Shown piece after piece: positions 1 to 1,343 of a stretch of 1,343 nucleotides of DNA. Position numbers: made by a program. The stretch is taken from assembly GCF_003334385.1 (NCBI RefSeq), contig NZ_QOWN01000115.1; one strand, 5' to 3'. Source of the DNA: Escherichia coli (GTDB taxonomy: Bacteria; Pseudomonadota; Gammaproteobacteria; Enterobacterales; Enterobacteriaceae). Position 1 is the stretch's first letter, and each line of letters starts with the position of its first letter.

Positions 1-1343
1 CGGGTGATCACCGGGATTGCGTCAACGCCTTCTCCGGATCGGGATGGTGACATCCTGGAGCCGGAGGGCGCGGAGTTTGGCAGTGCGATCCCGTTTCTCT
101 GGCAGCATGACCATTCCCGCCCGGTGGGGCAGTGTACGGTGCGCCGGGTCAGCGAAGGGCTGGAAATCACGGCAACACTGGTGAAGCCCGTACCGGATAT
201 GCCGTCGCAACTGGCTGCCCGGCTGGATGAGGTCTGGGCGGCCATTAAGACCGGGCTGGTCAGGGGGCTGTCCGTGGGCTTCCGTCCCCATGAATACACC
301 TTTCTGGACGGAGGCGGACTGCATTTTCTGCGCTGGGAACTGATGGAGGTGTCTGCCGTCACCGTGCCCGCGAATGCGGAATGCACCATCCGGACCATTA
401 AATCTTACGACCGCCCGTTTTCTGCCGCGTCCGGCAACCGGAAACCGGTGGTGAAAATCGCATCTTCTGCCGGCGCTGCGGCACAGTCAACAACCGTTTT
501 TCATAAGGAAAAGACCATAATGAATATTGGCGAACAGATTAAAAGTTTTGAAAACAAGCGTGCAGCGCTGGCAGCCTCCCTTGAGGAGGTCATGACCAAA
601 GCCGCAGAGGAAGGGCGCACGCTGGATGTGGAGGAGGAAGAGCATTACGACAACACCGCAGCGGAAATCCGTCAGGTGGATGCGCACCTGAAGCGCCTGC
701 GTGAACTGGAAGCCGGTAAGGCCGCCACGGCGCAGCCGGTGAAACAGGCCGGTAACGGGAATGTGGCCGCGGTGGCTTCTGCGCCGGTGATCCGTGTGGA
801 GCAGAAACTGGATAAGGGGATTGGCTTCGCCCGCTTTGCCAAATCGCTGGCTGCGGCTAAAGGCGTCCGATCTGAAGCCCTGGAAGTGGCCCGTCGTCAG
901 TATCCGGATGACAGTCGTCTGCATCATGTCCTGAAATCGGCAGTGGGCGCGGGGACCACCACGGATCCGCAGTGGGCAGGCAGCCTGTCTGAATATCAGG
1001 AATACGCACAGGACTTTATTGATTACCTGCGTCCGCAGACCATTATCGGGCGATTTGGTCAGGGCGGGATCCCTGCACTTCGTCAGGTGCCGTTCAATAT
1101 CCGTGTGCACGCCCAGGTGTCCGGCGGTGCTGCCGGCTGGGTGGGTGAGGGTAAGGCAAAACCCCTGACGAAGTTTGATTTTGAATCCATCACCTTCAGT
1201 CATGCGAAGGTGTCGGCCATTGCGGTACTGACGGAAGAATTGATCCGTTTTTCCAGTCCGGCTGCTGATGCACTGGTCCGTAATGCGCTGGCGGAAGCGG
1301 TGGTGGCGCGTCTGGATACAGACTTTGTGGACCCGAAAAAAGC

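What the first reader, a model, noticed from the sequence alone, without database searches (positions are those of the whole stretch)
520..720. Delta-domain-like coiled coil with acidic VEEEEH cluster at the capsid N-terminus
About 65 residues of charged, helix-favouring sequence with heptad-like hydrophobic spacing and a run of four Glu (nt 631-642) match what capsid delta domains and scaffolding proteins look like. It implies the capsid protein carries its own scaffold, removed by the protease after assembly. The segment appears shorter than the roughly 100-residue HK97 delta domain, although the following Ala/Gly-rich stretch (about nt 721-790) may belong to it.
Basis: partly seen in the sequence, partly recalled or inferred. 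Interest (0 to 1): 0.3.

Follow-up and report, generated by a model that had tools for sequence, protein, structure and literature searches.

The report
Capsid scaffold domain inside protease–capsid fusion
The flagged stretch is the ordinary coiled-coil scaffold ("delta") domain of an HK97-type phage capsid protein from Shiga-toxin phages, but it lies in the middle of a longer protease–scaffold–capsid gene, and the ATG at 520 looks like a conserved internal start that gives a second, shorter product.

Summary
Nt 520-720 encode 67 residues, 39% charged, with no Pro and EEEE at exactly nt 631-642. AlphaFold2 predicts two long helices with pLDDT of 90 or more. The heptad pattern is weak in this sequence alone but strong across 146 homologues.

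The stretch is homologous to HK97-type scaffold (delta) domains. However, it is only the first, coiled-coil subdomain. The whole scaffold domain runs about 140-155 residues, to about nt 936-990.

It is also not at the start of the ORF. Frame 1 is open across the whole window. The ATG at 520 is Met193 of a 645-aa gene that fuses an S78 prohead protease to the scaffold and capsid domains. The protease catalytic His55 and Ser110 are intact. The gene is found in Stx phages (genus Pankowvirus) and in 1255 of 5426 complete E. coli genomes.

Three signals conserved down to about 40% identity suggest the ATG also works as an internal start:
- a start codon, ATG or GTG, at the junction;
- a Shine-Dalgarno motif 6-10 nt upstream in the close homologues, kept in different codon phases; every distant one examined also has one just upstream of the start;
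- a local dip in mRNA structure and GC content.

This would give nested long and short products, as in lambda C/Nu3 or herpesvirus UL26/UL26.5. That part is inferred, not shown. Overall this is a known kind of feature of modest interest.

The parts
1..399 (+). S78 (HK97-type) prohead protease domain, residues 20-152 of the 645-aa fusion. The ORF begins 57 nt upstream of the window. Catalytic His55 is at nt 106-108 and Ser110 at nt 271-273.
   Evidence: Pfam PF04586 matches residues 48-152. hhalign against HK97 gp4 gives 97.4% probability, with H55 aligned to H65 and S110 to S114. AlphaFold2 pLDDT is above 94. Both catalytic residues are invariant in the homologues.
409..519 (+). Disordered, hypervariable linker between protease and scaffold domain (residues 156-192). 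It is in frame and contains no stop codon.
   Evidence: AlphaFold2 pLDDT is below 50 for residues 156-188. Homologues at 73-78% identity show indels and substitutions here. Translation of nt 1-519 has no stop.
505..510 (+). AAGGAA, a Shine-Dalgarno-like motif 9-10 nt upstream of ATG 520. Putative ribosome-binding site for internal initiation.
   Evidence: The motif is conserved in all 16 DNA variants at 6-10 nt spacing, in different codon phases (K-E against K-G-N). Seven distant fused homologues carry GGAG, AAGGAGG or AAGGA in front of ATG or GTG. The junction codon qualifies as a start codon with a Shine-Dalgarno motif in 13 of 13 genes, against about 1-2% of codons in general.
520..522 (+). 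ATG for Met193. Putative internal start of the short scaffold-capsid product (453 aa, 48.2 kDa).
   Evidence: Met193 is invariant in 15 homologues while the linker varies. Unfused relatives begin within about 5 residues of this position in most cases (offsets 0-5 in 32 of 38). Distant fused relatives keep a Met at or next to the junction, and in four where the DNA was read the start is GTG. The surrounding 60 nt are among the least structured 0.3-6% of windows in 10 of 10 genes, and GC is 0.30 against 0.60 for the gene.
526..612 (+). Scaffold-domain helix 1 (residues 195-223), with heptad repeats.
   Evidence: AlphaFold2 helix with pLDDT 90-97. Heptad statistics.
613..627 (+). Conserved turn G-R-T-L-D (residues 224-228) that breaks the heptad register.
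   Evidence: G224, R225, T226, L227 and D228 are invariant among close homologues. In the 146-sequence family Gly is present in 79%. AlphaFold2 predicts non-helical residues at 224-228.
628..729 (+). Scaffold-domain helix 2 (residues 229-262). It begins with the acidic cluster VEEEEH, with EEEE at nt 631-642.
   Evidence: AlphaFold2 helix with pLDDT 95-98. The family a/d pattern beats all 5000 shuffles. A profile match links this region to residues 4-73 of the EcCI2 capsid protein.
730..819 (+). Ala/Gly/Pro-rich flexible linker of the scaffold domain (residues 263-292).
   Evidence: AlphaFold2 predicts coil with pLDDT 52-80. It corresponds to the spacer between the coiled coil and the capsid-bound motif in HK97 and D3 (PMC10275583; 10.1101/2025.06.14.659615).
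820..936 (+). Three short helices (residues 293-331). [quoted passage not shown]
   Evidence: AlphaFold2 helices at 293-304, 309-319 and 324-331 with pLDDT 88-94. The assignment rests on position only. No significant sequence match to HK97 gp5 was found here.
934..990 (+). Zone in which the maturation cleavage site (the mature capsid N-terminus) is predicted, residues about 331-349.
   Evidence: AlphaFold2 pLDDT dips to 57-62. Register estimates come from Bxb1, R4C and EcCI2 chains and from a weak hhalign match to HK97. This is an inference, not a measurement.
991..1343 (+). Start of the HK97-fold capsid domain: N-arm helix 350-365, E-loop, P-domain strands and spine helix 439-462. It continues beyond the window to residue 645.
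   Evidence: Pfam PF05065 matches residues 386-635. Foldseek matches Bxb1, D3, HK97 and T5 capsids at E-values from 1e-15 to 1e-9.

Best explanation
Nt 520-729 encode the coiled-coil 'tower' subdomain of an HK97-type scaffold (delta) domain. The rest of that domain follows: a flexible linker (nt 730-819) and three short helices (nt 820-936). It joins the HK97-fold capsid domain at about nt 936-990.

By analogy with HK97, D3 and T5, the helices of neighbouring subunits bundle inside the procapsid and guide assembly. The S78 protease then digests the whole domain.

The difference from HK97 is that the protease is encoded in the same reading frame directly upstream. The gene therefore specifies a 69-kDa protease-linker-scaffold-capsid polyprotein.

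My proposal, which is inferred, is that ribosomes also start at the conserved Shine-Dalgarno motif and ATG at nt 505-522. This would make an abundant 48-kDa scaffold-capsid protein that builds the shell. A smaller number of full-length molecules would co-assemble as capsid subunits and so carry the protease inside. The covalent tether would replace the C-terminal targeting tail of the free HK97 protease.

After assembly the protease would cut the scaffold domains, its own included, leaving a mature capsid protein of about 31-33 kDa.

Shown here: the domain architecture, the homology, the open reading frame, the intact catalytic residues and the conserved initiation signals.
Inferred: internal initiation, the ratio of the two products, and the cleavage itself.
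For: Continuous ORF and annotation:
- Searches show a single open frame annotated as one 645-aa gene.
- The fusion is conserved at 644-648 aa across Enterobacterales.
- 107 of the 150 best 50%-identity representatives are fused.

Scaffold identity:
- TIGR01554 matches from its model position 3.
- A family profile hits residues 4-73 of the EcCI2 capsid protein, domain E = 7e-6.
- AlphaFold2 predicts two confident helices, then a disordered linker, three helices and an HK97 fold.
- The heptad pattern is conserved across the family.
- The layout matches the three-part scaffold described for HK97 and D3 (PMC10275583; 10.1101/2025.06.14.659615).
- No separate scaffold gene was recognised in the head module.

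Active protease:
- hhalign against gp4 gives 97.4% probability, with H65 and S114 equivalents conserved. The match stops at gp4 residue 164, so the gp4 tail (165-225) has no counterpart.

Internal start:
- Met193 is invariant next to a hypervariable linker.
- AAGGAA is conserved at the nucleotide level in different codon phases.
- Distant fused homologues carry a Shine-Dalgarno motif plus ATG or GTG.
- 13 of 13 genes meet the criterion, against a background of about 1-2%.
- 10 of 10 genes show a minimum in mRNA structure and a GC dip at this point.
- Unfused relatives start their capsid gene exactly here and have the same gene order.
Against: No protein-level data exist for this phage family in what I could search. 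The phi330 virion mass-spectrometry paper shows no peptide map for this protein.

Fused and unfused forms interconvert, so the Shine-Dalgarno motif and start codon could partly be leftovers from recent fusion events rather than selected features.

Lys/Gly/Glu-rich linkers tend to produce AAGG/GGAG strings and low GC on their own.

The single-sequence heptad signal is weak.

The cleavage site could not be placed by sequence. Pairwise alignment to HK97 gp5 is not significant, and hhalign probability is only 0.2%.

The assignment of residues 293-331 to the scaffold rather than to the mature protein rests on register estimates only.
Confidence: 0.72

Rival explanations
1. Polyprotein only. Every capsid subunit is made as the 69-kDa protease-scaffold-capsid fusion, with no internal initiation. 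Met193 and the upstream purine-rich motif are relics of the ancestral separate capsid gene. The protease frees itself and removes the scaffold after assembly.
For: The ORF is continuous, and its own start has a strong AGGAGG motif in front of GTG. Databases annotate only one product. Fused and unfused forms toggle in evolution, so relics are plausible. My own rough volume estimate is that about 415 copies of 36 kDa of internal protein would fill roughly half of a T=7 procapsid, which does not exclude this model.
Against: The start codon is kept (as ATG or GTG) in lineages down to about 40% identity, while the adjacent linker is scrambled by indels. The Shine-Dalgarno motif is kept in different codon phases. 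An mRNA structure minimum is present in 10 of 10 genes. Relics should decay over that divergence.
Confidence: 0.2
2. A separate capsid gene starts at ATG 520, and the upstream protease is an independent gene. The fusion is an annotation or sequencing artefact.
For: 38 of the 150 representatives are truly unfused. One such locus has a real TAA stop 5 nt before the capsid ATG.
Against: In this window frame 1 has no stop from nt 1 to 1343. The same open frame is present at 99% identity or more in 899 E. coli records, and in 93 phage records in all. It is also open in homologues of 73-78% identity from many genera. An artefact would not be reproduced so widely.
Confidence: 0.04
3. The helical segment is not a transient scaffold. 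It is retained in the mature virion, for example as an internal or decoration element.
For: No processing data exist for this phage. Some HK97-fold capsid proteins are not cleaved.
Against: The segment is homologous to delta domains. In the EcCI2 structure only 285 of 385 residues are modelled. A catalytically intact S78 protease is fused in cis. Flexible low-confidence segments flank the domain.
Confidence: 0.04

Closest known systems
HK97 gp5 scaffold (delta) domain, residues 2-103, with gp4 protease
   Same: The scaffold is fused N-terminally to an HK97-fold capsid domain. It has a coiled-coil subdomain of about 65 residues (HK97 residues 2-66), then a spacer, then a short capsid-binding motif. 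The protease is of the S78 family with the same catalytic His and Ser (PMC10275583).
   Different: No significant pairwise sequence similarity to gp5. The linker is longer (about 30 residues against 10), and three helices replace the helix-turn-strand motif. The whole domain is about 140-155 residues against 103. The protease is fused in frame, not a separate gene, and lacks the gp4 C-terminal tail. The portal gene lies downstream of the capsid gene, not upstream.
Scaffold domains of phage D3 (T=9) and T5 pb8 (T=13, 159-residue delta domain)
   Same: The same three-part layout of coiled coil, linker and P-domain-associated region. Both are removed by an S78-type protease (10.1101/2025.06.14.659615). 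Total length is comparable with T5.
   Different: In those phages the protease is a separate gene. The capsid geometry of the present phage is unknown. The phi330 head is about 55 nm and the genome about 56-62 kb (PMC12502783).
[quoted passage not shown]
   Same: A single ORF with an S78 protease N-terminal to an HK97-fold capsid protein.
   Different: These are different sequence families. The present protein scores 54 bits against a cutoff of 525 for NF045541. Its own family is PHROG 617. None of the papers read addresses how the products are expressed.
Nested in-frame assembly genes: lambda C/Nu3, and herpesvirus UL26/UL26.5 (from my own knowledge)
   Same: A long protease-scaffold product, plus an abundant short product translated or transcribed from an internal in-frame start. 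The long form delivers the protease into the procapsid through the shared scaffold part.
   Different: In those systems the shared part is a free scaffold protein, not one fused to the capsid protein. Lambda C is an S49 protease and the herpesvirus enzyme is an assemblin. Here the two products are inferred only.
Capsid protein of the capsid-forming phage-inducible island EcCI2 (PDB 9gyi)
   Same: Its residues 4-73 align to the family's scaffold profile, with the same ...E-x-x-R-x-L-x-x-x-E...D-E-L... pattern. It has an HK97 fold.
   Different: It is a 385-aa protein with no protease domain, from a different lineage.

Membership tests
HK97-type capsid protein with N-terminal scaffold (delta) domain (TIGR01554 / PF05065) | HK97-fold capsid domain in the same polypeptide, C-terminal to the segment | tested here: met
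   PF05065 matches 386-635. TIGR01554 scores 77 bits against a cutoff of 27.5. Foldseek hits HK97, D3, T5 and Bxb1 capsids.
HK97-type capsid protein with N-terminal scaffold (delta) domain (TIGR01554 / PF05065) | Alpha-helical coiled-coil subdomain of about 65-80 residues at the start of the scaffold | tested here: met
   AlphaFold2 helices at 195-223 and 229-262 with pLDDT of 90 or more. The family heptad pattern gives 47 of 5000 and 0 of 5000 shuffles. The single-sequence signal is weaker. Oligomeric bundling was not tested.
HK97-type capsid protein with N-terminal scaffold (delta) domain (TIGR01554 / PF05065) | Sequence homology of the segment itself to known delta domains | tested here: met
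   TIGR01554 aligns from model position 3 at residue 204. The family profile matches EcCI2 capsid protein residues 4-73 with domain E = 7e-6. There is no significant direct match to HK97 gp5.
HK97-type capsid protein with N-terminal scaffold (delta) domain (TIGR01554 / PF05065) | Linker plus capsid-interior-binding motif between the coiled coil and the N-arm | tested here: inconclusive
   A disordered stretch at 263-292 and three helices at 293-331 are predicted. The assignment is by position only.
HK97-type capsid protein with N-terminal scaffold (delta) domain (TIGR01554 / PF05065) | Scaffold lies at the N-terminus of the translated protein | tested here: inconclusive
   Not met for the annotated 645-aa ORF, where it starts at residue 193. 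It would be met for the putative internally initiated product.
HK97-type capsid protein with N-terminal scaffold (delta) domain (TIGR01554 / PF05065) | Cognate S78 prohead protease encoded next to it | tested here: met
   PF04586 matches 48-152. hhalign to gp4 gives 97.4% probability with the catalytic His and Ser conserved. Here it is fused in cis.
HK97-type capsid protein with N-terminal scaffold (delta) domain (TIGR01554 / PF05065) | Scaffold removed by proteolysis and absent from the mature virion | not testable with these tools
   Needs virion mass spectrometry or N-terminal sequencing. Raw data for phi330 exist (PRIDE PXD061229, PMC12502783) but could not be accessed.
HK97-type capsid protein with N-terminal scaffold (delta) domain (TIGR01554 / PF05065) | No separate scaffolding-protein gene in the head module | tested here: inconclusive
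   The module contains TerS, TerL, the fusion gene, a 73-aa ORF (PHROG 829, function unknown), the portal gene, a 407-aa repeat protein and connector genes. None was recognised as a scaffold, but two have unknown function.
NCBIfam NF045541 prohead protease/major capsid protein fusion protein | Whole-protein score above the curated cutoff (525 bits) | tested here: not met
   54 bits, covering residues 48-287 only. The architecture is the same but the family is different.
Nested in-frame assembly genes (lambda C/Nu3 type) | Internal in-frame start codon with its own ribosome-binding site inside the longer gene | tested here: met
   AAGGAA lies 9-10 nt before ATG 520. It is conserved in 16 DNA variants and 7 distant lineages, in different codon phases, with GTG alternatives. 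A local mRNA structure minimum is present in 10 of 10 genes.
Nested in-frame assembly genes (lambda C/Nu3 type) | Two protein products actually made from the one ORF | not testable with these tools
   Requires a western blot or Edman sequencing in a protease-dead mutant, or start-site ribosome profiling.

The most novel reading that the evidence does not exclude
In a very widespread clade of enterobacterial prophages, including Stx phages, one ORF acts as two nested genes. A minor protease-scaffold-capsid long form would insert the maturation protease into the shell as a capsid subunit. A major scaffold-capsid short form would be made from a conserved internal ribosome-binding site. This would be a three-in-one version of the lambda C/Nu3 and herpesvirus UL26/UL26.5 strategy. 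Covalent tethering would replace the protease targeting tail, and the ratio of the two start sites would set the protease dose per capsid.
Probability: 0.6. Interest if true: 0.45.

Novelty: new member of a known kind. Interest (0 to 1): 0.3.

Why it matters
The scaffold domain itself is textbook HK97 biology, so it adds little. The useful corrections are that the capsid gene here is a protease-scaffold-capsid fusion, and that the flagged ATG is internal to it.

If the conserved internal start is real, 1255 of the 5426 complete E. coli genomes searched carry a head gene whose annotation as a single 'major capsid protein' hides a second product. That includes major Shiga-toxin phages. The family would then be a simple natural system for asking how the protease dose per capsid is set, and how a protease can be packaged by covalent tethering. 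It would also be relevant to engineering HK97-type shells that load cargo.

Tried and rejected
- Direct alignment to HK97 gp5 to place the cleavage site was not significant. The pairwise score was 38 against 34 ± 6 for shuffles, and hhalign probability was 0.2%. I report only a bracket of residues 331-349.
- A phmmer search of the PDB with the single sequence found only the Bxb1 capsid protein. A profile was needed to reach the scaffold match.
- Literature searches for processing or expression data on phage 2851, 1717, YYZ-2008 or phi330, or on protease-capsid fusions, found annotation-level mentions only. The phi330 paper and its supplement show peptide maps only for podoviruses. The type I CBASS preprint concerns a protease-scaffold fusion, not this architecture.
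- The 238-aa antisense ORF at nt 487-1203 has no PHROG match and is taken as a chance shadow ORF.
- There are no promoter-like or terminator-like sites in the window. The only Rfam match is a chance one at E = 0.39.
- I considered whether the 407-aa ORF after the portal gene could be a second protease or a scaffold. It is a tandem-repeat protein with no such domain.
- I considered programmed frameshifting at the T5 run (nt 494-498) or at A-runs in relatives as a way to make free protease. No canonical slippery heptamer lies in the zero frame, so I did not pursue it.

Full report
WHAT THE WINDOW IS

The 1343-nt window matches Stx-converting siphophages at 99.6-99.9% identity. These include phage 2851, 1717, YYZ-2008, WGPS6 and phi330, all of genus Pankowvirus. 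Prophages in 1255 of 5426 complete E. coli genomes also match, at 100% in many O157:H7 strains.

In every annotated record the whole window lies inside one coding sequence. It is named 'phage major capsid protein', 'major head protein/prohead protease' or 'capsid and scaffold'. In locus L001 the gene runs from 5944 to 7881 and encodes 645 aa. It starts at a GTG preceded by AGGAGG. Window nt 1 is codon 20.

CHECKING THE OBSERVATION

- The ATG at 520, the 67-residue charged segment and the Glu run at 631-642 are exactly as described.
- 39% of residues are charged and there is no proline.
- The heptad pattern in this sequence alone is modest. For residues 1-31, 87 of 5000 shuffles do as well. For residues 36-66, 353 of 5000 do. 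The register breaks at GRTLD.
- Across 146 homologues the a/d positions are clearly conserved: 47 of 5000 shuffles for helix 1 and 0 of 5000 for helix 2.
- AlphaFold2 on that alignment (mean pLDDT 86.8) predicts helices at 195-223 and 229-262 with pLDDT 90-98.
- The exact EEEE run is specific to this lineage. The motif around it, G-x-T-L-D-x-x-E-x-E-E-x-D, is conserved.

WHAT THE SEGMENT IS

It is a scaffold (delta) domain of the HK97 type.
- TIGR01554 (HK97-family major capsid protein) aligns from its model position 3 at residue 204.
- A profile of the family matches residues 4-73 of the capsid protein of the island EcCI2 (PDB 9gyi). Only 285 of its 385 residues are modelled in the capsid.
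- Downstream lies a confident HK97 fold.

The predicted layout is as follows.
- Coiled coil, residues 195-262.
- Disordered Ala/Gly/Pro linker, residues 263-292.
- Three short helices, residues 293-331.
- A low-confidence loop, residues 331-349.
- The N-arm helix, from residue 350.

This reproduces the three-part scaffold described for HK97: coiled coil 2-66, spacer, and helix-turn-strand 76-105 (PMC10275583). The same layout is described for D3 (10.1101/2025.06.14.659615).

The whole domain is about 140-155 residues. I could not place the cleavage site by sequence. I therefore give only a bracket of nt 934-990.

Frame 1 has no stop anywhere in the window. Upstream of the ATG the same frame encodes an S78 prohead protease.
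- Pfam PF04586 matches it.
- hhalign against HK97 gp4 gives 97.4% probability.
- His55 and Ser110 align to the catalytic H65 and S114 of gp4.
- The match ends where the C-terminal tail of gp4 begins.
- A disordered, hypervariable linker (residues 156-192) joins the protease to Met193.

The fusion is not an artefact.
- It is conserved at 644-648 aa in Salmonella, Enterobacter, Klebsiella, Serratia, Pantoea and others.
- It occurs in 107 of the 150 best 50%-identity cluster representatives.
- 38 representatives are unfused, and most (32 of 38) start within 0-5 residues of the Met193 position.
- One unfused relative has the same gene order, with a real TAA stop 5 nt before the capsid ATG.

EVIDENCE THAT ATG 520 IS ALSO A START SITE

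1. Met193 is invariant although the linker next to it is riddled with indels.
2. AAGGAA lies 6-10 nt upstream in all 16 distinct DNA variants. It sits in different codon phases, so the encoded residues differ (K-E against K-G-N) while the nucleotides are kept.
3. In seven lineages at 40-58% identity the junction again has GGAG, AAGGAGG or AAGGA followed by ATG. In four of them the start codon is GTG instead.
4. The junction codon is a start codon with a Shine-Dalgarno motif in 13 of 13 genes examined. Only about 1-2% of codons in those genes qualify.
5. The 60 nt around it are among the least structured 0.3-6% of windows in 10 of 10 genes. GC falls to 0.30-0.38 against 0.60 for the gene.

The likeliest model is therefore two nested products, a 69.0-kDa long form and a 48.2-kDa short form. 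This is inference. Relics of repeated fusion events and the composition of Lys/Gly/Glu-rich linkers are the main caveats. No protein-level data were found.

COMPARISON WITH WHAT IS KNOWN

- The scaffold domain is a member of the HK97-type family by homology and predicted structure. Its removal from the virion is untested.
- Protease-capsid fusions are already annotated in other phage groups: NF045541, PHROG 4523, actinobacteriophage clusters, Rhodobacter RcC phages and thaumarchaeal proviruses.
- This protein belongs to a different sequence family, PHROG 617, and fails the NF045541 cutoff.
- Functionally the proposed expression scheme resembles lambda C/Nu3 and herpesvirus UL26/UL26.5. That comparison rests on my own knowledge.

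VERDICT

The position ('capsid N-terminus') and the extent ('shorter than HK97') are wrong or incomplete. The feature is a new member of a known kind. Interest is modest (0.3), with a moderately interesting and testable side hypothesis about nested translation.

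Noticed in passing
L001 8093-10677 (downstream of the window); L002 8093-10672: In E. coli 2012EL-2448 the portal gene (454 aa) and the next ORF (407 aa) overlap by ATGA, and RefSeq flags them as one 'frameshifted' portal pseudogene. In phage 2851 the same region is a single 859-aa ORF. This is the same fused/unfused toggling seen for the protease and capsid genes.
   Followed up: partly
L001 9454-10677: The 407-aa ORF after the portal gene has four tandem repeats of about 54 aa (DVRPMLEQMVKEAVSHIPVPRDGRDYDPEVL...). Its C-terminal part has a weak CBM_5_12 match (E = 0.005). 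PHROGs file it under 'portal protein' only because of the fused versions. Its function is unknown, and it could be a head decoration or fibre.
   Followed up: partly
L001 3659-10677; L085, L088-L091: The gene order is TerS, TerL, protease-capsid fusion, a small ORF of 65-110 aa (PHROG 829, function unknown), then portal. This order is conserved in distant relatives. It differs from the HK97 order of portal, protease, capsid.
   Followed up: partly
window 494-523: A T5 run lies at 494-498. Two out-of-frame stops, TAATGA at 518-523 in frame 2, overlap ATG 520. This fits an origin of the fusion by a 1-nt frame change from an ATGA stop-start overlap. Whether slippage here yields free protease was not tested.
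   Followed up: no
window 487-1203, minus strand: A 238-aa antisense ORF overlaps the capsid coding region. It has no PHROG match and is treated as a shadow ORF of GC-rich coding sequence.
   Followed up: yes
proteins P0001, P0004, P0123, P0126: Some database entries are still larger fusions. P0001 is 1079 aa with TerL, protease and capsid domains. P0004 is 784 aa and includes a portal domain. P0123 and P0126 are about 1090 aa, with the capsid match starting near residue 625. They may be assembly or frameshift artefacts, or real multi-domain polyproteins.
   Followed up: no
phage records; PMC12502783: Genomes of this phage group are about 55-65 kb. That is close to phage D3 (T=9) and larger than HK97. 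The phi330 head measures about 55 nm by negative stain. The triangulation number is unknown.
   Followed up: no
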